Source: Escherichia coli (GTDB lineage Bacteria; Pseudomonadota; Gammaproteobacteria; Enterobacterales; Enterobacteriaceae). Taken from it: a stretch of DNA of 64,000 bases. Within the stretch, counting starts at the first letter, position 1. Each line of letters opens with the position of its first letter. The notes under the pieces are model-generated. The model was given only the letters and a program-made list of their open reading frames with translations. It was not told the origin of the DNA and made no database searches. Location of the stretch: NCBI RefSeq assembly GCF_044324875.1, contig NZ_CP172185.1, one strand, 5' to 3'. Positions 22,421 to 31,081 of this stretch are shown here, one piece after another. The translations under genes were made by a program, and so were the position numbers.

Positions 22421-22673
22421 TCGCTAAATAATAGAGCAACCTTTAATAATCTTCTGCTGAATAAAGATTGTCTCATATATTAATTTTATGAGATTTTTTT
22501 AGGATTATATCAAGGAGAAGAAACGAACTTATTAAGCTAGAATAGCCACGGGTGCTTGAGACTGTTTGTCTCAGGTATTCACCGAAAGGCAGACAGAGAA
22601 AAGCCCCACCTGACTATAAATCAAAGTGTACTGCACCCATTTTGTTGGACGATGAAATGGAATAGCCCCTGAT

Positions 22674-23195
22674 ATGTCAAAGCCAAAATACCCTTTTGAA
22701 AAGCGCCTTGAAGTCGTGAATCACTACTTCACTACTGATGATGGTTACAGGATCATCTCGGCACGTTTTGGTGTCCCCCGAACCCAGGTCAGGACATGGG
22801 TTGCCCTCTATGAAAAACATGGAGAAAAAGGTTTAATTCCCAAACCTAAAGGTGTTAGTGCTGATCCTGAGTTGCGTATTAAGGTCGTGAAAGCTGTGAT
22901 CGAGCAGCACATGTCCCTTAATCAGGCTGCTGCTCACTTTATGCTTGCTGGTAGTGGTTCTGTAGCCAGGTGGCTGAAGGTTTATGAAGAGCGCGGAGAA
23001 GCTGGTTTACGCGCGCTCAAGATTGGCACCAAAAGAAACATTGCAATATCAGTTGATCCAGAAAAAGCGGCATCAGCATTGGAGCTGTCAAAAGACCGAC
23101 GCATTGAGGATCTTGAAAGGCAAGTTCGATTTCTTGAAACGCGGCTTGTGTATCTAAAAAAGCTGAAAGCCTTAGCTCATCCCACGAAAAAGTGA
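22674..23195 (+). CDS. insJ: IS150 transposase OrfA
   Basis: 173-aa ORF MSKPKYPFEKRLEVVNHYFTTDDGYRIISARFGVPRTQVRTW…, recognised as IS150 InsJ. Confidence 0.92.
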   Translation: MSKPKYPFEKRLEVVNHYFTTDDGYRIISARFGVPRTQVRTWVALYEKHGEKGLIPKPKGVSADPELRIKVVKAVIEQHMSLNQAAAHFMLAGSGSVARWLKVYEERGEAGLRALKIGTKRNIAISVDPEKAASALELSKDRRIEDLERQVRFLETRLVYLKKLKALAHPTKK

Positions 23196-24043
23196 AAGTA
23201 CTCAACGAGCTAAGGCAGTTTTATCCTCTTGATGAGCTTCTCAGGGCTGCGGAGATACCGCGCAGTACGTTTTATTACCATCTAAAGGCTCTCAGCAAGC
23301 CTGACAAGTATGCGGACGTTAAAAAGCGTATTGGTGAGATTTATCATGAGAATAGAGGCCGATACGGATACCGTAGGGTAACGCTGTCTCTTCATCGAGA
23401 AGGGAAACAGATTAACCATAAAGCTGTTCAGCGCCTGATGGGAACCCTCTCACTTAAGGCAGCGATTAAGGTCAAGCGATACCGCTCTTACAGAGGAGAG
23501 GTAGGGCAAACCGCCCCCAATGTTCTCCAAAGAGATTTCAAGGCTACGCGGCCAAACGAGAAGTGGGTTACCGATGTTACTGAATTTGCAGTCAATGGGC
23601 GCAAGCTGTATTTGTCTCCAGTAATAGATCTCTTCAACAACGAAGTTATTTCTTACAGCCTTTCGGAAAGACCAGTGATGAACATGGTCGAGAATATGCT
23701 CGATCAGGCATTCAAAAAGCTTAATCCTCACGAGCATCCTGTTCTGCACTCTGACCAGGGATGGCAGTATCGTATGAGAAGATATCAAAATATCCTTAAA
23801 GAATATGGTATTAAACAAAGCATGTCCAGAAAAGGCAATTGTCTGGATAATGCTGTGGTGGAGTGTTTCTTTGGAACCTTAAAATCGGAGTGTTTTTATC
23901 TTGATGAGTTCAGTAATATAAGCGAACTGAAGGATGCTGTTACGGAATATATTGAATACTACAACAGCAGAAGAATTAGCCTGAAATTAAAAGGTCTGAC
24001 TCCAATTGAATATCGGAATCAGACCTATATGCCTCGTGTTTAA
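23192..24043 (+). CDS. insK: IS150 transposase OrfB (DDE domain; joined to OrfA by -1 frameshift)
   Basis: 283-aa ORF overlapping insJ by 4 bp; …[10 protein letters not shown]…[20 protein letters not shown]… integrase core. Confidence 0.92.
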
Positions 24044-24144
24044 CTGTCCAACTTTTTGGGGTCAGTACAAAGTGAGGCCCCTCTATGCATAGACACCATA
24101 AGGTTAGCCTCTTACTCGTTGGAAATCAACACAGGAGGCTGGGA

Positions 24145-24297
24145 ATGCCGCAGAAATATAGATTACTTTCTTTAATAGTGATTTGTTTCACGCTTTTATT
24201 TTTCACCTGGATGGTAAGAGATTCACTGTGTGAATTGCATATTAAACAGGGAAGTTATGAGCTGGCGGCATTTTTAGCCTGCAATTTGAAAGAGTAA
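24145..24297 (+). CDS. hokA: Hok-family type I toxin (50 aa)
   Basis: MPQKYRLLSLIVICFTLLFFTWMVRDSLCELHIKQGSYELAAFLACNLKE; RBS aggag 6 nt upstream; the right end of IS150 lies about 75 bp upstream. Confidence 0.85.
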   Translation: MPQKYRLLSLIVICFTLLFFTWMVRDSLCELHIKQGSYELAAFLACNLKE

Positions 24298-24305
24298 GAG
24301 TCTTC

Positions 24306-24331
24306 GGCGGGAAGTTATTCCCGCCTTTCTT
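24306..24331 (+). terminator. rho-independent terminator after hokA
   Basis: ggcgggaagttattcccgcc followed by tttctt. Confidence 0.65.
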
Positions 24332-24455
24332 ACGGTGTTGGGTATTCTCAATGCACCCTAATTTATTTCTTTAATGAATGTTTTTTTTAAAAATACGAAT
24401 GGATTTGGCTATTAGATAAGTTTTTAATCGGGAACAGGAATGGTTCGGAGCCTTC

Positions 24456-24827
24456 ATGAATAAACTGCTTTTACTGTTGATAATGCTCTATCAACGACAT
24501 CTTTCTCCTCGCAAAGGATACCGCTGTGCTTACAGTGTGTTGTACCAAACGCAGGGATGTTCGGGAGCAGTCAAAGAGATTATTCAACAGAAAGGTGTTA
24601 TTGCAGGCTGGGGCGAGATACGTCAGCGTTTTGCAGATTGCCGACTTGCGGCACAGACAATCAGGCAGAAGCAACACCTGAACGAGGTAATACGTAAAAA
24701 GAAGAATAATAATTGTGATTGTTCCGGGTGCGATGGTGCGGTCTGTCGTGATTGCGACATTCCGGTGCCGGATCTGGATTGTTCCTGGGACTGTTCTTCT
24801 CTACATATAAAGCGTTTTTTCCAATAA
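24456..24827 (+). CDS. YidD-like (PF01809-type) small protein with a cysteine-rich C-terminal tail, 123 aa
   Basis: ORF with ggag 5 nt before ATG; N-terminal half aligns by eye with E. coli YidD (YQRhLSP..G.rC.Y…GCSgA…GVIaGW…R…C); C-terminal 30 aa carry 7 Cys (CDCSGCDGAVCRDCD…DCSWDC); ends at the cspA terminator hairpin. AT-rich, uses rare codons. Not verified by search. Confidence 0.5.
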   Translation: MNKLLLLLIMLYQRHLSPRKGYRCAYSVLYQTQGCSGAVKEIIQQKGVIAGWGEIRQRFADCRLAAQTIRQKQHLNEVIRKKKNNNCDCSGCDGAVCRDCDIPVPDLDCSWDCSSLHIKRFFQ

Positions 24828-24880
24828 AAAAATCCCCGCCAAATGGCAGGGATCTTAGATTCTGTGCTTTTAAGCAGAGA

Positions 24881-25093
24881 TTACAGGCTGGTTACGTTAC
24901 CAGCTGCCGGGCCTTTAGCGCCGCTTTCGATGGTGAAGGACACTTTCTGACCTTCGTCCAGAGATTTGTAACCATCGTTCTGGATAGCAGAGAAGTGTAC
25001 GAACACGTCTTTAGAGCCATCGTCAGGAGTGATGAAGCCGAAGCCTTTGTCAGCGTTGAACCATTTTACGATACCAGTCATTTTACCGGACAT
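24881..25093 (-). CDS. cspA: major cold-shock protein CspA
   Basis: 70-aa [73 protein letters not shown]; terminator hairpin plus U-run immediately downstream (24822..24857, minus strand). Confidence 0.97.
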
Positions 25094-25252
25094 AGTGTAT
25101 TACCTTTAATAATTAAGTGTGCCTTTCGGCGATATGGCGTGCTTTACAGATTTTGAAGCGTTAAAGGAATGTGCACTACGAGGGGTATCAACGATAACTC
25201 TTGAAGGGACTTGCCTTACTACACTGCTTTAATGGTCTGTACGTCAAACCGT
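25094..25252 (-). promoter_or_regulatory. cspA long 5' untranslated leader
   Basis: Non-coding stretch upstream of cspA; the E. coli cspA mRNA is known to have a leader of about 160 nt that acts as an RNA thermosensor. Boundary inferred from that, not measured. Confidence 0.45.
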
Positions 25253-25373
25253 TGATGTGCATTAAGCCACGCATTGGCGGGTGATGCAACAATTATTTTT
25301 CATATTTATGATTAATCGGTTGGAAAACGGTCCTGTCATCAGGACCGTAAACAGCAATAAAGTGGATAAAAGT

Positions 25374-25664
25374 CTATTCCATCAACTGCTTACTTAATGC
25401 CGGGTTGGCTTGAATCAAACGCATCAATTTTAGTTCGGCACTTGAAGGCTTCACGCGTCTGGATTCCCATTCCTTTACCATGGCGACTGATACGCCCAAA
25501 ACCCGGGCGAAATCATCGATTTTTAACCCTGTCCCTTTTCGTAACTGCTCAATTTCGGTACAGGACGTTGTTCTGTGCGTCAGGGTAATTTTCTGCGTTT
25601 CATCTTTAAAAACAATCTGTTCCAGGCTGCTCAACAGCTCATGCATTGGATCTTTATATTCCAT
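25374..25664 (-). CDS. yiaG: XRE-family HTH transcriptional regulator
   Basis: 96-aa ORF with HTH (…IDDFARVLGVSVAMVKEWESRRVKPSSAELKLMRL…). Confidence 0.85.
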   Translation of the reverse strand: MEYKDPMHELLSSLEQIVFKDETQKITLTHRTTSCTEIEQLRKGTGLKIDDFARVLGVSVAMVKEWESRRVKPSSAELKLMRLIQANPALSKQLME

Positions 25665-26097
25665 TGAAAACTCCTCAAATCACACTGCGGGATCGTGAAT
25701 TGCATCGAAGCTCATTAAGAATAGTCGGGAAAAACAGACACAGCGGGGTGAAGTCAGGGCATGCTCTGGCTATGATTCGATTCAGCCACTCATTTAGCGT
25801 GACTTATAGCCACCTAACGATCTGATAAATGCCGATATATCTCTTACCACTCCCGGTTTGTAAAGATTTCGAAAATCTAACGTTCTGAGAAGGCGTAAAT
25901 CTCTGGCTACAAAAAAAGCAACGTCACTATCATTTTTTAACAATGAAACAACAAATTAACCTTGTTTCATTTTCTCCATGATTTTACCAGGAAGATTACG
26001 TAGAAAGGGTATCCTGCAAGCCTGTCCTGGACTATCCTTGTCACGTCAGACACGCGTGTGTCGTTGTGCGCTTTTTTTGGGTGAAAGGAGTAAGAAA

Positions 26098-26808
26098 ATG
26101 GCGACAGGAAAGTCCTGCTCTCGCTGGTTTGCGTCTCTTGCGGCGTTATTAATGGTAGTTAGCCTGAGTGGGTGTTTTGATAAAGAAGGCGATCAGCGTA
26201 AAGCGTTTATCGACTTCCTGCAGAATACAGTGATGCGTAGCGGTGAACGTCTACCTACCCTGACTGCCGATCAGAAAAAACAGTTTGGTCCTTTTGTCTC
26301 TGATTACGCGATTCTGTATGGTTATTCTCAGCAGGTGAATCAGGCGATGGATTCCGGTCTGCGCCCGGTTGTAGACAGCGTTAACGCAATTCGCGTACCG
26401 CAGGATTACGTTACGCAAAGCGGCCCACTGCGTGAAATGAACGGTTCTCTGGGCGTACTGGCGCAACAGCTGCAAAATGCGAAGTTGCAGGCCGATGCTG
26501 CGCACTCTGCGCTAAAACAGAGCGATGACCTGAAACCGGTCTTCGATCAGGCATTCACCAAAGTGGTAACGACGCCAGCTGATGCGTTGCAACCATTGAT
26601 TCCGGCGGCACAAACTTTCACGCAACAACTGGTGATGGTTGGAGACTACATTGCTCAGCAAGGTACTCAGGTGAGCTTTGTCGCAAATGGCATCCAGTTC
26701 CCGACTTCGCAGCAGGCAAGTGAATATAACAAACTGATTGCGCCATTACCGGCACAGCATCAGGCGTTTAATCAGGCCTGGACTACAGCAGTTACTGCAA
26801 CCCAATAA
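26098..26808 (+). CDS. yiaF: DUF3053 lipoprotein
   Basis: ORF 25978..26808; Met at 26098 gives 236 aa with signal and lipobox (…LMVVSLSGCFDKEG…). Confidence 0.8.
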   Translation: MATGKSCSRWFASLAALLMVVSLSGCFDKEGDQRKAFIDFLQNTVMRSGERLPTLTADQKKQFGPFVSDYAILYGYSQQVNQAMDSGLRPVVDSVNAIRVPQDYVTQSGPLREMNGSLGVLAQQLQNAKLQADAAHSALKQSDDLKPVFDQAFTKVVTTPADALQPLIPAAQTFTQQLVMVGDYIAQQGTQVSFVANGIQFPTSQQASEYNKLIAPLPAQHQAFNQAWTTAVTATQ

Positions 26809-26857
26809 AGAGTAAAAGCCCGAGCGATTATCGGGCTTTACTCCACGCAGTCGCGGC

Positions 26858-27832
26858 TTAGTCCGCGACGTGCGGATTCACACAGTTCTTCTCAACCTTT
26901 CCTTGTAACGCATCAATCAAGTTATCCACGGCACAGGCGGCCATGCCATAACGCGTCTCATGAGTGGCAGATCCAATATGCGGTACTGCGACGACGTTGG
27001 CCATTGAGAGCAACGGCGAATCTACGGATAGTGGCTCTTGTTCGAAGACATCCAGCCCGGCAGCGTGAATTTCCCCTTTCTGCAATGCAGCAATCAGTGC
27101 ATTTTCATCAACCACCGGGCCACGTCCGGCATTAATGAATATGGCGGAGGATTTCATTTTGGCGAATTGTTCTGCGCCAAACAGATGATGCGTTTCATCA
27201 GTTAACGGCAGGATCAGGCAAACGAAATCTGACTCTTGTAACAGTGTATCCAAATCGCAGTAGCGGGCGTTGAAGCGTTCTTCTGCTTCTTTATGGTGGC
27301 GGCGCGCGTTATAGAGGATGGGCATATTGAAGCCAAAGTGCGCACGTTGTGCCAGCGCCATGCCGATCCGTCCCATCCCGACAATGCCCAGTGTTTTATG
27401 GTGAACGTCAGTGCCGTACCAGTCCGGGCCTATGCTCGCGGTCCATTCGCCTGCTTTTACTCGTTCTGCTACCTCCACAACCCGACGAGCGGTAGACAAC
27501 ACCAGCGCCATCAGCGTATCGGCGACGGTTTCTGTTAATACGGTTGGCGTGTGCATCAGCAGAATTTTTCGGGCGGTAAGCGCATCGACATCAAAATTGT
27601 CATAGCCTACGGAGATCGTTGATGTGGCACGCAGTTTCGGCATTTTTTCCAGCAATGCGGCATCAACATTCTCGTTTGAACCCAGTAAACCTTCAGCTTC
27701 GGCAAAAATTGCTGCATTTTGTTCGACGGTTTGTGGGCTGAGGTTTGCCACCTGGTGAACGGTGAAATGCTCTTGCAGGCGTTGCAGTAAATCATCAGGT
27801 AAGGCTTTGTAGAGGATAACGGACGGCTTCAT
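26858..27832 (-). CDS. ghrB: glyoxylate/hydroxypyruvate reductase B (2-ketogluconate reductase)
   Basis: 324 aa from [23 protein letters not shown]…; D-2-hydroxyacid dehydrogenase NAD-binding motif GIVGMGRIG. Confidence 0.92.
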
Positions 27833-27935
27833 TCTTCTCTCCATTCACTGATAAGGCGATCACCTTAGCCTGAAATATGATGAAGGAAAACTGAAGAATG
27901 CCAGGTGATTTTTGCATCACCTGGCATGAAAGGGA

Positions 27936-28595
27936 TTACAGCGGGCTTAAGGTAATTTCTACACGGCGGTTTTGCGCCTTACCTTCTGCGGTGCTGTTGC
28001 TGGCGATTGGGTTAGCCGGGCCAAGGCCCTGAGTACGGATGCGGCTGGCGTCCACGCCCTGGGTGATCAACGCGCTGGCAACGGAATCCGCACGCTGCTG
28101 GGAGAGACGCATGTTCAGGTCGTGACCACCCGTGCTGTCGGTATAACCAATCACGTTAACCGCCGTTTTCGGATACTCTTTCAGTACCATTGCCACGCCG
28201 GTCAGGGTGTTAGCGCCCGCCGGTTTCAGGGTTGCGCTGCTGCTGTCGAAGGTCACATTGTTCGGCATATTGAGGATAATGTTATCCCCGCTGCGGGTTA
28301 CGCTAACACCAGTGCCGCGCATTTTGTCACGTAGCTTCGCTTCCTGCACATCCATGTAATAACCAACGCCGCCGCCCAGAGCTGCACCCGCTGCTGCGCC
28401 AATCAGCGCGCCTTTACCGCGATCTTTCTTCGAAGAAGAGAGCGCACCAATACCCGCGCCAACGAGAGAGCCCAGACCTGCGCCGATAGCAGATTTACCT
28501 GCTTCGCGTTCGCCGGTGTAAGGGTTAGTTGTACAGCCAGATACCGCCAGAGCGCCACTCACTACGGCGGCAATAAGATAAACACGTTTCTTCAT
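27936..28595 (-). CDS. yiaD: OmpA-family lipoprotein
   Basis: 219-aa ORF with lipobox (…LAVSGCTTNPYTGE…), Gly-rich linker and C-terminal OmpA-like domain (…NRRVEITLSPL). Confidence 0.9.
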   Translation of the reverse strand: MKKRVYLIAAVVSGALAVSGCTTNPYTGEREAGKSAIGAGLGSLVGAGIGALSSSKKDRGKGALIGAAAGAALGGGVGYYMDVQEAKLRDKMRGTGVSVTRSGDNIILNMPNNVTFDSSSATLKPAGANTLTGVAMVLKEYPKTAVNVIGYTDSTGGHDLNMRLSQQRADSVASALITQGVDASRIRTQGLGPANPIASNSTAEGKAQNRRVEITLSPL

Positions 28596-28747
28596 TGTTA
28601 ATCCTTAATAACCTTTTTATTCTTTGCCACGGGTTCCGTGGCGGGAGATTATGCCGCGTGAACATGAAGATTATTCCTGGGAATACTCGGAAATTTGTAA
28701 GTAATATTTAACTGCTCAATACATTTAACCTTTCAGGAGCCTTCGGT

Positions 28748-31081
28748 TTGGCCAACTCATCCTCACGATATTCCGTTCTGACTGCCGCCCACTGGGGGCC
28801 CATGCTGGTTGAAACCGACGGCGAAACCGTGTTTAGCTCGCGTGGCGCGTTAGCCACAGGAATGGAAAACTCCTTGCAGAGCGCGGTTCGCGACCAGGTT
28901 CACAGTAATACGCGGGTGCGATTTCCAATGGTGCGCAAAGGCTTTCTTGCGTCACCGGAAAATCCGCAAGGCATTCGTGGGCAGGATGAATTTGTTCGCG
29001 TGAGTTGGGATGAGGCGCTGGATCTCATCCATCATCAACATAAACGTATTCGTGAGGCTTATGGTCCGGCGTCGATTTTTGCGGGTTCCTACGGCTGGCG
29101 TTCAAACGGCGTGCTGCATAAGGCCTCGACATTATTACAACGCTATATGGCGCTGGCAGGCGGTTATACCGGGCATCTGGGGGATTATTCGACCGGTGCA
29201 GCACAGGCGATCATGCCGTATGTCGTGGGGGGCAGCGAAGTTTATCAACAGCAAACCAGTTGGCCGCTGGTGCTGGAACATAGCGATGTTGTGGTGCTGT
29301 GGAGTGCTAATCCACTCAATACGCTGAAAATTGCGTGGAATGCATCCGATGAGCAGGGGCTTTCTTACTTTTCCGCACTGCGTGACAGCGGGAAAAAGCT
29401 GATCTGCATTGATCCAATGCGATCGGAAACCGTCGATTTCTTTGGCGATAAAATGGAGTGGGTGGCACCGCACATGGGCACCGATGTTGCGCTGATGCTG
29501 GGGATCGCCCATACGCTGGTGGAAAATGGCTGGCACGACGAAGCGTTTCTGACGCGTTGCACCACAGGTTATGACGTCTTCGCCTCTTATTTGCTGGGCG
29601 AGAGCGACGGAATAGCGAAAACCGCCGAATGGGCGGCAGAGATTTGTGGTGTTGGCGCAGCGAAAATCCGCGAACTGGCGGCTCTTTTCTACCAAAATAC
29701 AACCATGCTGATGGCTGGCTGGGGAATGCAGCGCCAACAGTTTGGTGAGCAAAAACACTGGATGATCGTCACGCTGGCGGCAATGTTGGGGCAAATCGGC
29801 ACACCCGGCGGCGGTTTTGGACTTTCTTACCATTTTGCCAATGGTGGTAACCCCACGCGCCGCGCTGCGGTGCTCTCTTCCATGCAGGGCAGCTTGCCTG
29901 GCTGCACCGATGCGGTAGATAAAATCCCTGTTGCCCGCATTGTTGAAGCACTGGAAAACCCTGGTGGCGCATATCAACACAACGGTATGAACCGACATTT
30001 CCCGGATATTCGTTTTATCTGGTGGGCGGGCGGTGCCAACTTTACTCATCATCAGGATACCAATCGCCTGATCCGTGCCTGGCAAAAACCGGAGCTGGTG
30101 GTGATCTCTGAATGCTTCTGGACGGCGGCGGCGAAACACGCGGATATCGTTCTGCCTGCGACCACTTCGTTTGAGCGTAATGATCTCACCATGACCGGCG
30201 ATTACAGCAATCAGCATCTGGTGCCGATGAAACAAGTGGTGCCGCCACGTTATGAAGCGCGTAATGATTTTGATGTCTTTGCCGAGTTGAGTGAACGTTG
30301 GGAGAAGGGCGGCTATGCGCGGTTTACGGAAGGAAAAAGTGAGCTGCAATGGCTGGAAACGTTTTATAACGTTGCCCGGCAACGCGGGGCAAGCCAGCAG
30401 GTTGAATTGCCGCCATTTGCTGAGTTCTGGCAAGCCAACCAGTTAATTGAGATGCCGGAAAACCCGGACAGCGAGCGGTTTATTCGCTTCGCCGATTTTC
30501 GCCGCGATCCGCAGGCGCATCCATTAAAAACCGCCAGCGGTAAGATTGAAATATTCTCGCAGCGTATTGCCGATTATGGTTACCAGGATTGCCCTGGGCA
30601 TCCGATGTGGCTGGAGCCGGATGAGTGGCAGGGCAATGCCGAACCAGAACAGTTGCAGGTACTTTCTGCTCATCCGGCACATCGTCTGCACAGCCAGCTG
30701 AATTACAGTTCTCTGCGCGAATTGTACGCGGTGGCAAATCGTGAGCCTGTCACCATTCATCCTGACGATGCCCAGGCGCGCGGCATACAAGATGGCGATA
30801 TTGTTCGGTTGTGGAACGCACGCGGGCAAATTCTTGCCGGAGCGGTCATTAGCGAGGGAATTAAACCTGGCGTGATTTGTATTCATGAAGGGGCATGGCC
30901 GGATCTGGATTTAACCGCTGACGGTATTTGTAAAAACGGCGCGGTGAACGTTCTGACCAAAGATCTCCCCAGCTCGCGGCTGGGGAATGGCTGTGCGGGT
31001 AATACGGCACTGGCATGGCTGGAAAAATACAACGGTCCGGAACTGACACTTACAGCGTTTGAACCACCGGCCAGCTCATAA
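28748..31081 (+). CDS. bisC: biotin sulfoxide reductase (molybdopterin oxidoreductase)
   Basis: 777-aa ORF with TTG start and RBS aggag 8 nt upstream; DMSO-reductase-family motifs; recognised as BisC. Confidence 0.9.

What the first reader, a model, noticed from the sequence alone, without database searches (positions are those of the whole stretch)
24456..24827. Unexpected 123-aa ORF between hokA and cspA: YidD-like N-terminal domain fused to a 7-cysteine tail
Seen: an ORF with a usable RBS that ends exactly at the cspA terminator hairpin. Residues 10-60 (YQRHLSPRKGYRCAY…GCSGAVKEIIQQKGVIAGWGEIRQRFADC) align almost without gaps to the conserved core of E. coli YidD ([45 protein letters not shown]). 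The last 30 residues are CDCSGCDGAVCRDCDIPVPDLDCSWDC, a dense CxC/CxxC cluster suggesting metal or redox chemistry. Codon usage is AT-rich with rare codons (ATA, CGA, TTA), unlike the neighbouring genes. From memory of the K-12 cspA 3' flank, K-12 has only about 100 bp where this strain has about 480 bp, so the ORF appears to sit in a strain-specific segment. Inference: a horizontally acquired YidD paralog of unknown function; its position between two type-I-toxin/cold-shock loci and a convergent terminator is odd.
Basis: partly seen in the sequence, partly recalled or inferred. Interest (0 to 1): 0.6.

Follow-up and report, generated by a model that had tools for sequence, protein, structure and literature searches.

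The report
Cysteine-tailed YidD-like gene beside cspA
The ORF is a real, conserved gene for a divergent relative of the membrane-insertion helper YidD with a cysteine/aspartate-rich tail; it is an old resident of the glyS-cspA interval that most E. coli, including K-12, have deleted, and databases already label it "YidD" although nobody has studied it.

Summary
Window 24456..24827 (+) is a 123-aa ORF with a GGAG Shine-Dalgarno 5 nt upstream, and its stop codon lies 1 nt before the cspA terminator hairpin. It matches YidD models (TIGR00278 75.8 bits against a cutoff of 40; PF01809 E 1e-5) and keeps the three core cysteines. It lacks the canonical CHP...GGxDPVP end. Instead it has a basic helix and a disordered tail with 7 Cys.

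It is a paralog, not the housekeeping yidD, which 5,424 of 5,426 complete E. coli genomes carry in the rnpA-yidC operon. It belongs to a discrete family of about 1,800-2,400 50%-identity clusters across several phyla. 146 of the 150 best-scoring members have at least 4 Cys in the tail.

"Horizontally acquired" is not supported. Orthologs sit at the same glyS-(hokA)-X-cspA position in a divergent Escherichia, Klebsiella and Superficieibacter, with saturated dS and purifying selection. K-12-type alleles share one junction: 456 bp replaced by 59 bp. Only 112 of 5,426 complete E. coli genomes keep the gene.

Function is inferred only. The most likely reading is a membrane-peripheral protein whose thiolate-rich tail binds metal or acts in redox. 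It is already auto-annotated as "YidD" and is uncharacterised. Interest is moderate to low.

The parts
24456..24827 (+). CDS of the 123-aa YidD-like paralog, including the stop codon
   Evidence: ORF list. TIGR00278 75.8 bits. PF01809 E 1.1e-5. Annotated as a yidD CDS at the homologous place in other E. coli genomes. dN/dS below 1.
24456..24641 (+). Residues 1-62: hydrophobic N-terminal helix (2-16) plus the YidD-homologous core, with invariant Y12, S17, K20, G21, C24, A25, C35, S36 and near-invariant C62
   Evidence: Alignments A2 and A3. BLASTP and hhalign to canonical YidD. AF2 helices 2-16, 25-30, 35-46 and 48-85.
24642..24713 (+). Residues 63-86: basic (net +6) helical linker RLAAQTIRQKQHLNEVIRKKKNNN, which replaces the canonical CHP...GGxDPVP end
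   Evidence: AF2 helix 48-85, with block-mean pLDDT 88-92 over residues 41-80 and 66 over 81-90. Charge count. The first 22 post-core residues across the family are rich in A, R and K. Canonical invariants H65, P66, G70, G71, P74, V75, P76 have no counterpart here.
24714..24824 (+). Residues 87-123: acidic Cys/Asp-rich tail (7 Cys, net -4) ending in the hydrophobic-basic LHIKRFFQ; predicted disordered
   Evidence: pLDDT below 50 for most of residues 90-123, with block means 45-48. Family tail composition beyond the linker is C 14%, D 13%, G 11%, and 146 of 150 members have at least 4 Cys after the core. No Pfam family matches the tail. Tail dN/dS is 0.3-0.5.
24447..24450 (+). Shine-Dalgarno GGAG, 5 nt upstream of the ATG
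   Evidence: Read directly from the sequence. Conserved in the E. coli 7/2 and L015 alleles.
24306..24325 (+). hokA terminator-like hairpin with a T-run. It separates the gene from hokA, so the gene needs its own promoter within about 24326-24446
   Evidence: Terminator scan. No consensus sigma-70 site was found, but the same scan also missed the known cspA promoter region, so the absence is uninformative.
24829..24856 (-). cspA intrinsic terminator hairpin, shared convergently. The ORF's stop codon lies 1 nt before it
   Evidence: Terminator scan. RNA fold of the + strand. The Rfam cspA match spans 24826-25253 (-).
24367..24822 (.). 456-bp segment replaced by 59 bp in the gene-less alleles of K-12, XDL and O157:H7 (net 397 bp). 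The left part of the 59 bp still weakly resembles this gene's upstream region
   Evidence: DNA alignments A1 and A6. 112 of 5,426 complete E. coli genomes hold the full segment; the sampled others match only the flanks.

Best explanation
This is a real protein-coding gene for a divergent paralog of YidD, the small cytoplasmic-face helper of YidC/Sec membrane-protein insertion.

Shown here: it belongs to a discrete, phylum-spanning sister family of canonical YidD. The architecture is fixed: a hydrophobic N-terminal helix, a three-cysteine YidD-like core with the signature YQRxxSPRKG(Y/F/W)xCA...CS, a basic helix, and a disordered Cys/Asp/Gly-rich tail. In Enterobacteriaceae it is an old, vertically inherited occupant of the glyS-cspA interval. 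A single net 397-bp deletion, now present in about 98% of complete E. coli genomes including K-12, removed it while sparing the cspA terminator.

Inferred, not shown: like YidD, it docks on the inner face of the cytoplasmic membrane through its N-terminal helix, possibly helped by the basic linker and the hydrophobic-basic C-terminus. The thiolate- and carboxylate-rich tail binds soft or borderline metal ions (Zn, Cu, Cd, or an Fe-S centre) or undergoes reversible thiol chemistry. That would make it a membrane-tethered, metallothionein-like or redox-sensitive accessory factor rather than a second copy of YidD. It is dispensable, since most E. coli lack it.
For: Real gene:
- The reading frame is intact in three E. 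coli alleles, a divergent Escherichia, Klebsiella and Superficieibacter. The 15 listed Escherichia cluster variants are all 123 aa.
- dN/dS is 0.05-0.11 in the core and 0.3-0.5 in the tail.
- There is an SD and a conserved N-terminus.

YidD superfamily:
- TIGR00278 75.8 bits against a cutoff of 40.
- PF01809 E 1.1e-5, and 147 of 150 family members hit it at E<=0.001.
- hhalign to canonical YidD gives 97.7% probability over 58 columns with the three Cys aligned.

Discrete family:
- The subfamily HMM scores its own members 62-142 bits and canonical YidDs 15-39 bits.
- The canonical HMM scores 123-184 bits on canonical YidDs and 5-36 bits on subfamily members.
- 2,404 clusters match at E<=1e-3 and 1,835 at E<=1e-10 among 1.84 billion representatives.
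- 130 matches were confirmed in a scan of one genome for each of 100,044 species. The 80 listed span Proteobacteria, Actinomycetes, Deinococcus, Abditibacteriota, Cyanobacteria and Planctomycetota.

Paralog: the canonical rnpA-yidD-yidC copy is in 5,424 of 5,426 E. coli genomes and is not in this window.

Ancestral gene, then deletion:
- Synteny is conserved.
- dS against Klebsiella is saturated.
- K-12, XDL and O157 share an identical junction.
- 112 of 5,426 genomes keep the gene.
- It is absent from phages and found only on non-mobilizable megaplasmids elsewhere.

Tail:
- Beyond the linker, family composition is C 14%, D 13%, G 11%. CxC occurs in 104 of 150 members and CxxC in 88 of 150.
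- Cys is flanked mostly by Asp.
- Composition is conserved while positions drift, including C109Y and W111C among Escherichia alleles.
- The tail is predicted disordered.
- Cys-rich tails persist in every lineage, including the short GVCCCG[PG]IPIPFRF tail of Actinomycetes.

Membrane association of canonical YidD through an N-terminal amphipathic helix is from my own knowledge of Yu et al. 2011, J Bacteriol 193:5242. That paper is cited in PMC8082313 but was not readable here.
Against: - No expression data for this gene were available, and no consensus promoter was found (an insensitive scan).
- The tail gives no significant match to any Pfam family, including the metallothionein families, or to any PDB chain.
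- Cys spacing is not conserved, so a defined metal site cannot be argued from sequence.
- AF2 gives no confident tail structure or tail-core docking in either the E. coli or the actinomycete form.
- No conserved neighbour across phyla points to metal or redox biology. Contexts are lineage-specific: cspA in enterics, a beta-oxidation cluster in Rhodobacterales.
- Low GC in every host (45% in E. coli, 48% in Klebsiella) leaves some room for older lateral movement.
Confidence: 0.6

Rival explanations
1. It is simply a second, functionally redundant YidD. It assists YidC/Sec-dependent insertion as the canonical protein does, and the tail is a tolerated low-complexity appendage.
For: It exceeds the curated cutoff of the NCBIfam "equivalog" model, 75.8 bits against 91.4 for K-12 YidD. 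It has the same three core Cys and the YQRxxSP motif. It is dispensable, as YidD is reported to be.
Against: Reciprocal HMM scores are cleanly bimodal. The canonical invariant C-terminal CHP...GG.DPVP block is absent. The gene is never in the rnpA-yidC operon. Cys-rich tails are retained in 146 of the 150 best-scoring members across phyla and evolve under dN/dS below 1, which argues that the tail is functional.
Confidence: 0.2
2. It is a recently horizontally acquired, strain-specific island gene.
For: It is present in only 2% of complete E. coli genomes. GC is 6 points below the window and rare codons are enriched. Distribution across bacteria is patchy, including megaplasmids.
Against: The same chromosomal slot is occupied in several Escherichia lineages, Klebsiella and Superficieibacter. 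The protein cluster also holds E. fergusonii-named sequences. dS against Klebsiella is saturated and divergence is ordered as in the neighbours: GlyS 88-90%, YiaG 69-73%, this protein 50-57%. No integrase, repeats or mobile scars bound the segment, and the nearby IS150 is upstream of hokA and also present in K-12. The gene-less alleles share one junction and keep a degenerate remnant of the upstream region. There are no phage hits.
Confidence: 0.1
3. It is a ribosomally synthesised peptide (RiPP or bacteriocin) precursor. The YidD-like domain would act as leader and the Cys-rich tail as the core peptide.
For: A 2011 genome-mining paper listed six DUF37 (PF01809) proteins near cyanobacterial bacteriocin clusters as possible precursors (PMC3140520). 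Cys-rich C-termini are typical of several RiPP classes.
Against: No maturase, protease or exporter gene lies next to the gene in E. coli, Klebsiella, Superficieibacter, a Jannaschia genome or the two megaplasmid loci examined. Neighbour clustering over 80 loci found no partner shared across phyla. The Klebsiella ABC protein is a ribosome-type ABC-F ATPase, not a transporter. No conserved double-glycine cleavage motif separates core and tail.
Confidence: 0.05
4. It is a decaying, non-functional remnant in E. coli on its way to loss.
For: 98% of strains have lost it. The tail evolves faster than the core, and tail Cys are gained and lost among alleles.
Against: All 15 listed cluster variants are full-length at 123 aa, and PGAP lists a yidD CDS under the match in all 60 best-matching genomes. 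dN/dS is 0.14-0.46 among Escherichia alleles and 0.05-0.11 in the core against the divergent Escherichia and K. spallanzanii.
Confidence: 0.05

Closest known systems
YidD (E. coli b4557; TIGR00278 / Pfam PF01809, formerly DUF37 or 'haemolytic domain'), the membrane protein insertion efficiency factor encoded in rpmH-rnpA-yidD-yidC
   Same: The roughly 60-residue core is homologous: 33% identity, hhalign probability 97.7%. It shares the YQRxxSP motif, three aligned cysteines (C24/C35/C62 against C31/C37/C64) and a hydrophobic N-terminal helix. It is small, basic and lacks a signal peptide-like lipobox. It passes both family HMMs.
   Different: There is a 5-residue insertion between the first two Cys. 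The signature is SPRKG instead of SPLLG. It lacks the invariant CHP...GG.DPVP C-terminus. It gains a basic helix and a 7-Cys acidic tail. It lies at a different locus, convergent with cspA. It is accessory (2% of E. coli genomes) rather than core (5,424 of 5,426). Reciprocal HMM scores fall far outside each family's own range.
Bacterial metallothioneins (SmtA/BmtA family, Pfam PF02069; MymT of mycobacteria). The comparison is from general knowledge.
   Same: It is a short, Cys-dense (19% in the 37-residue tail), low-complexity region that is disordered when metal-free, with CxC and CxxC spacings. Composition is conserved more than positions.
   Different: There is no detectable homology to any metallothionein family. 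It is strongly Asp-rich. It is a tail on a membrane-associated domain rather than a free protein. Metal binding is untested.
Auto-annotated 'YidD' proteins of 100-196 aa in UniProt/AFDB (for example Klebsiella huaxiensis A0A564KCZ2, Vibrio cholerae A0A5Q6PDW4, Pseudomonas amygdali pMPPla107 A0AAD0PWP9)
   Same: They share the subfamily and the predicted fold. They are the only AFDB50 matches to the model, with E values from 3e-8 to 1e-3.
   Different: None in kind. These are orthologs or close family members, equally uncharacterised and equally named YidD by transfer.

Membership tests
YidD (TIGR00278 / PF01809) | Scores above the family HMM thresholds | tested here: met
   TIGR00278 gives 75.8 bits against a cutoff of 40 (K-12 YidD scores 91.4). 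PF01809 gives E 1.1e-5, 25.5 bits.
YidD (TIGR00278 / PF01809) | Three conserved core cysteines and the YQxxxSP motif | tested here: met
   C24, C35 and C62 align with C31, C37 and C64 of K-12 YidD, and YQRHLSP aligns with YQRLISP. C24 and C35 are invariant and C62 near-invariant (at least 90%) across 150 subfamily members.
YidD (TIGR00278 / PF01809) | Conserved C-terminal block C-H-P-x3-G-G-x-D-P-V-P, invariant in an alignment of 23 enterobacterial YidDs | tested here: not met
   After C62 the sequence is RLAAQTIRQKQ..., predicted as one long helix. H65, P66, G70, G71, P74, V75 and P76 have no counterpart.
YidD (TIGR00278 / PF01809) | Encoded in the rpmH-rnpA-yidD-yidC operon | tested here: not met
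   The gene lies between hokA and cspA. The operon copy is separate, sits elsewhere in 5,424 of 5,426 genomes, and is not in this window.
YidD (TIGR00278 / PF01809) | Falls within the score range of orthologs under a canonical-YidD profile (orthology rather than remote homology) | tested here: not met
   The canonical HMM scores subfamily members 4.8-36 bits and canonical YidDs 123-184 bits. The subfamily HMM scores canonical YidDs 15-39 bits and its own members 62-142 bits. The canonical profile was built from Enterobacterales only, which exaggerates the gap somewhat.
YidD (TIGR00278 / PF01809) | Peripheral inner-membrane location and enhancement of YidC/Sec-dependent insertion | not testable with these tools
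   This needs fractionation, cross-linking and complementation of a yidD deletion.
Metallothionein-like metal-binding peptide | High Cys density with CxC, CxxC and CC motifs in a short low-complexity region | tested here: met
   There are 7 Cys in 37 residues. Across the family, Cys makes up 14% beyond the linker, CxC occurs in 104 of 150 members and CxxC in 88 of 150.
Metallothionein-like metal-binding peptide | Homology to a described metallothionein family | tested here: not met
   No Pfam family other than YidD matched at E<=0.001 in any of the 150 members. There was no PDB sequence or fold match.
Metallothionein-like metal-binding peptide | Stoichiometric binding of Zn, Cu or Cd through thiolates | not testable with these tools
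   This needs purified protein, ICP-MS and metal titration.
RiPP / bacteriocin precursor | Co-located maturase, leader protease or exporter genes | tested here: not met
   None were found in enterobacterial, metagenomic or megaplasmid contexts, or in clustering of neighbours over 80 loci.
RiPP / bacteriocin precursor | Conserved leader-core cleavage motif | tested here: inconclusive
   No conserved GG/GA-type site is visible between core and tail in A2. The tail alignment is unreliable.

The most novel reading that the evidence does not exclude
The proteins filed as "YidD" that carry the SPRKG signature form an unrecognised, phylum-spanning family of membrane-tethered thiolate-rich proteins. 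Having lost the canonical C-H-P ligand block, the three-Cys YidD core would work together with the Cys-rich tail (long Cys/Asp in Proteobacteria, CCCG[PG]IPIPFRF in Actinomycetes, CIVIPCCIPI in Cyanobacteria) to hold a metal or Fe-S centre, or to be multiply thiol-modified, at the membrane surface. That would give a function distinct from membrane-protein insertion, and it would hint at what the conserved cysteines of YidD itself are for.
Probability: 0.3. Interest if true: 0.6.

Novelty: new variant of a known kind. Interest (0 to 1): 0.4.

Why it matters
- It corrects an annotation habit. An "equivalog" name (YidD) is being transferred to a separate, architecturally different family of roughly two thousand 50%-identity clusters.
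- It shows that the K-12 cspA 3' flank is a deletion scar of an ancestral enterobacterial gene, not the ground state.
- It offers a tractable E. coli-lineage entry point to an uncharacterised Cys-rich membrane-associated family: natural presence/absence strains and a dispensable 123-aa protein.
- It may also shed light on the unexplained conserved cysteines of YidD.
- It does not overturn anything, and no phenotype is known.

Tried and rejected
1. Recent HGT island. Rejected on synteny, saturated dS and the shared deletion junction.
2. Defence or phage origin. PADLOC gave no hit for the protein and there was no tblastn hit in 50,697 phage records. One metagenomic homolog (P0021) sits on a phage-like contig, but this was not followed up.
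3. Functional partner by neighbourhood. The Klebsiella upstream ABC-F ATPase is absent from E. coli and Superficieibacter. Clustering of neighbours over 80 loci gave only lineage-specific synteny.
4. Structure-based function. AF2 models of the E. coli form (150 sequences) and the actinomycete form (26 sequences) gave confident helices for the core but pLDDT below 50 for the tails. Foldseek found nothing in the PDB and only same-family models in AFDB50.
5. Tail homology. A weak DUF5363 hit (E 0.36) was not reproduced in any of the 150 members.
6. Literature. Five full-text searches found no paper on this subfamily. Yu et al. 2011 on YidD was not held in the library.
7. Promoter scan. It found no sites in the region, but it also missed the cspA promoter region, so it is uninformative.

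Full report
OBSERVATION

- A GGAG Shine-Dalgarno sits at 24447-24450, 5 nt from the ATG.
- A terminator-like hairpin with a T-run at 24306-24325 closes hokA upstream.
- The cspA terminator hairpin is at 24829-24856 on the minus strand. The Rfam cspA mRNA model ends at 24826.
- The tail has seven cysteines, at residues 87, 89, 92, 97, 100, 109 and 113.
- GC is 45.2% (GC3 42.7%) against 51.2% for the window. The listed rare codons make up 9.8% of the ORF against 4.3% in 30 long ORFs.

WHAT IT IS

The protein matches NCBIfam TIGR00278 (YidD) at 75.8 bits against a curated cutoff of 40, E 1.7e-21. It matches Pfam PF01809 more weakly, at 25.5 bits and E 1.1e-5 over residues 3-63.

BLASTP against K-12 YidD, taken from the rnpA-yidD-yidC operon, gives 33% identity over residues 2-57, E 5e-7. 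A profile-profile comparison of 150 relatives against 23 canonical YidDs gives 97.7% probability over 58 columns, with the three cysteines aligned. Homology to YidD is therefore solid.

It is not the housekeeping gene. The rnpA-yidD-yidC segment is present at 99% identity or more in 5,424 of 5,426 complete E. coli genomes and is not in this window.

It is also not a close duplicate.
- After the third Cys, canonical YidD has an invariant C-H-P...G-G-x-D-P-V-P block.
- This protein instead has a basic stretch (RLAAQTIRQKQHLNEVIRKKKNNN, net +6), predicted to continue a long helix spanning residues 48-85.
- That is followed by an acidic Cys/Asp tail with pLDDT mostly below 50.
- HMMs built here separate the two groups cleanly. 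The subfamily HMM scores its own members 62-142 bits and canonical YidDs 15-39 bits. The canonical HMM scores its own 123-184 bits and subfamily members 5-36 bits. The canonical profile came from Enterobacterales only, which exaggerates the gap somewhat.

THE FAMILY

A profile of 23 relatives, searched against 1.84 billion cluster representatives, found 2,404 proteins at E<=1e-3 and 1,835 at E<=1e-10.

A motif scan (YQRx[LI]SPRKG) of one genome for each of 100,044 species gave 130 confirmed matches. The 80 listed span:
- Enterobacteriaceae, Rhodobacterales, Burkholderiales and Neisseriales
- Abditibacteriota and Deinococcus
- many Actinomycetes
- Cyanobacteria and Planctomycetota

AFDB50 fold matches are only members of this same family (Klebsiella, Vibrio, Pseudomonas, Beggiatoa, Deinococcus and others), all auto-named YidD.

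Across the 150 best-scoring members:
- Invariant residues are Y12, S17, K20, G21, C24, A25, C35 and S36. C62 is near-invariant.
- 146 of 150 have at least 4 Cys after the core.
- Beyond the linker, composition is C 14%, D 13%, G 11%. CxC occurs in 104 members and CxxC in 88. Asp is the commonest neighbour of Cys.
- Actinomycete and Deinococcus members have a short, sharply conserved tail, GVCCCG[PG]IPIPFRF. Two cyanobacterial members end in GCIVIPCCIPI.
- No Pfam family matches the tails, and there is no PDB relative by sequence or fold.

ORIGIN IN THIS GENOME

Only 112 of 5,426 complete E. coli genomes hold the full segment, at 98.0-98.3% identity. The sampled others match only the flanks.

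This is not a sign of recent import. The ortholog occupies the same slot, glyS -> (hokA) -> X -> <- cspA <- yiaG, in:
- a divergent Escherichia (L015, 90% aa identity)
- Klebsiella spallanzanii and K. aerogenes
- two Superficieibacter species

The 90%-identity cluster also includes sequences that their source records name E. fergusonii and Escherichia sp. E4736.

Identity to Klebsiella and Superficieibacter is ordered as for vertically inherited neighbours: GlyS 88-90%, YiaG 69-73%, this protein 50-57%. dS against Klebsiella is saturated. dN/dS is 0.05-0.11 in the core and 0.3-0.5 in the tail.

K-12, XDL and O157:H7 share one identical gene-less junction. Window 24367-24822 (456 bp) is replaced by 59 bp, whose left part still weakly resembles this gene's upstream region. 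Homology resumes at the last codon, which keeps the cspA terminator intact. The spacer is 186 bp in K-12 against 583 bp here.

The simplest reading is ancestral presence followed by one old deletion allele that now dominates E. coli. Later allelic exchange cannot be excluded, because the left-flank haplotypes are mixed.

The family has no match in 50,697 phage records. On plasmids it occurs only on non-mobilizable megaplasmids of Pseudomonas, Vibrio, Deinococcus, Loktanella and one small Calothrix plasmid.

HOW IT PROBABLY WORKS

Shown: the architecture, its conservation, and purifying selection on both parts.

Inferred:
- By analogy with YidD, the hydrophobic N-terminal helix (NKLLLLLIMLY) docks the protein on the cytoplasmic face of the inner membrane. 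Peripheral membrane association of YidD through an N-terminal amphipathic helix is from my own knowledge of Yu et al. 2011. That paper is cited in PMC8082313 but was not readable here.
- The basic helix and the hydrophobic-basic C-terminus could add lipid contacts.
- The tail behaves like a metallothionein-type or redox-active segment. It keeps its composition while positions drift; C109Y and W111C occur among Escherichia alleles.

I put about 0.35 on metal or thiol chemistry specifically. I put about 0.9 on it being a real gene in a distinct YidD-related family, and about 0.8 on ancestral presence followed by deletion.

Neighbourhood analysis gives no cross-phylum partner. Klebsiella has an ARE-like ABC-F ATPase just upstream (NF000355 at 336.9 bits, below its cutoff of 380). 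Rhodobacterales embed the gene in a MerR, acyl-CoA dehydrogenase, GST, X, thiolase, FadB cluster. Neither association extends to E. coli.

RIVALS
- A redundant YidD is possible, but it does not explain the universally retained Cys tails or the lost C-terminal block.
- A RiPP precursor role was suggested for DUF37 proteins in cyanobacteria (PMC3140520). It lacks any adjacent maturase or exporter here.
- Pseudogenisation is contradicted by the intact 123-aa alleles and dN/dS below 1.

NOVELTY

The gene is already in RefSeq and UniProt as "membrane protein insertion efficiency factor YidD", so the ORF itself is not a discovery. I could not find in the searchable literature any recognition that these proteins form a separate, Cys-tailed family, or that K-12 carries its deletion scar. 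I rate it a new variant of a known kind, of moderate to low interest.

Noticed in passing
window 22550-24297: An IS150 copy (insJ/insK ORFs 22674..24043, + strand) lies between an Rfam 'sok antitoxin' match (22550-22703) and the hokA ORF (24145-24297). K-12 has IS150 at the same locus but in the opposite orientation, while strains 7/2 and O157:H7 have none there.
   Followed up: partly
window ~24277-24345 (-): A short ORF antisense to the 3' end of hokA is 81% identical over 21 aa to the K-12 small protein YsaE. PGAP annotates the equivalent as 'hypothetical protein' in other strains.
   Followed up: partly
L016 4274-5896; L004-L009 3280/3295-4899/4914: Klebsiella spallanzanii and K. aerogenes carry a 539-aa ribosomal-protection-like ABC-F ATPase (NF000355 at 336.9 bits, just under its cutoff of 380) inserted between glyS/hokA and the YidD-like gene. 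It is absent from Escherichia and Superficieibacter.
   Followed up: partly
L044-L093 (Actinomycetes, Deinococcus); L084, L090 (Cyanobacteria): Family members in Actinomycetes and Deinococcus end in a sharply conserved GVCCCG[PG]IPIPFRF motif. Two cyanobacterial members end in GCIVIPCCIPI. AF2 gives these tails low confidence, and I know of no described motif like them.
   Followed up: partly
L011, L019-L060 (Rhodobacterales): In 14-15 Rhodobacterales genomes the family member is embedded, on the same strand, in a conserved cluster: MerR, acyl-CoA dehydrogenase, glutathione S-transferase, X, thiolase, FadB-like.
   Followed up: no
window 24881-31000: The cspA-to-bisC stretch is at most 98.7% identical to every one of 5,426 complete E. 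coli genomes; none reaches 99%. The window therefore comes from an Escherichia/Shigella lineage with no close relative in that collection.
   Followed up: no
window 24829-24880 (+ strand view): Read on the + strand, the cspA terminator hairpin is followed by a poor U-tract (UCUUAGAUUCUG) and a second small hairpin. Transcripts of the YidD-like gene might therefore read through into cspA antisense. Gene-less strains would lack that potential antisense input.
   Followed up: no
L012 4261-4854: A 197-aa family member (P0021) lies on a 22-kb metagenomic contig made of many small unannotated ORFs plus a cell-wall hydrolase, which looks phage-like. No member was found in the 50,697 phage records.
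   Followed up: no
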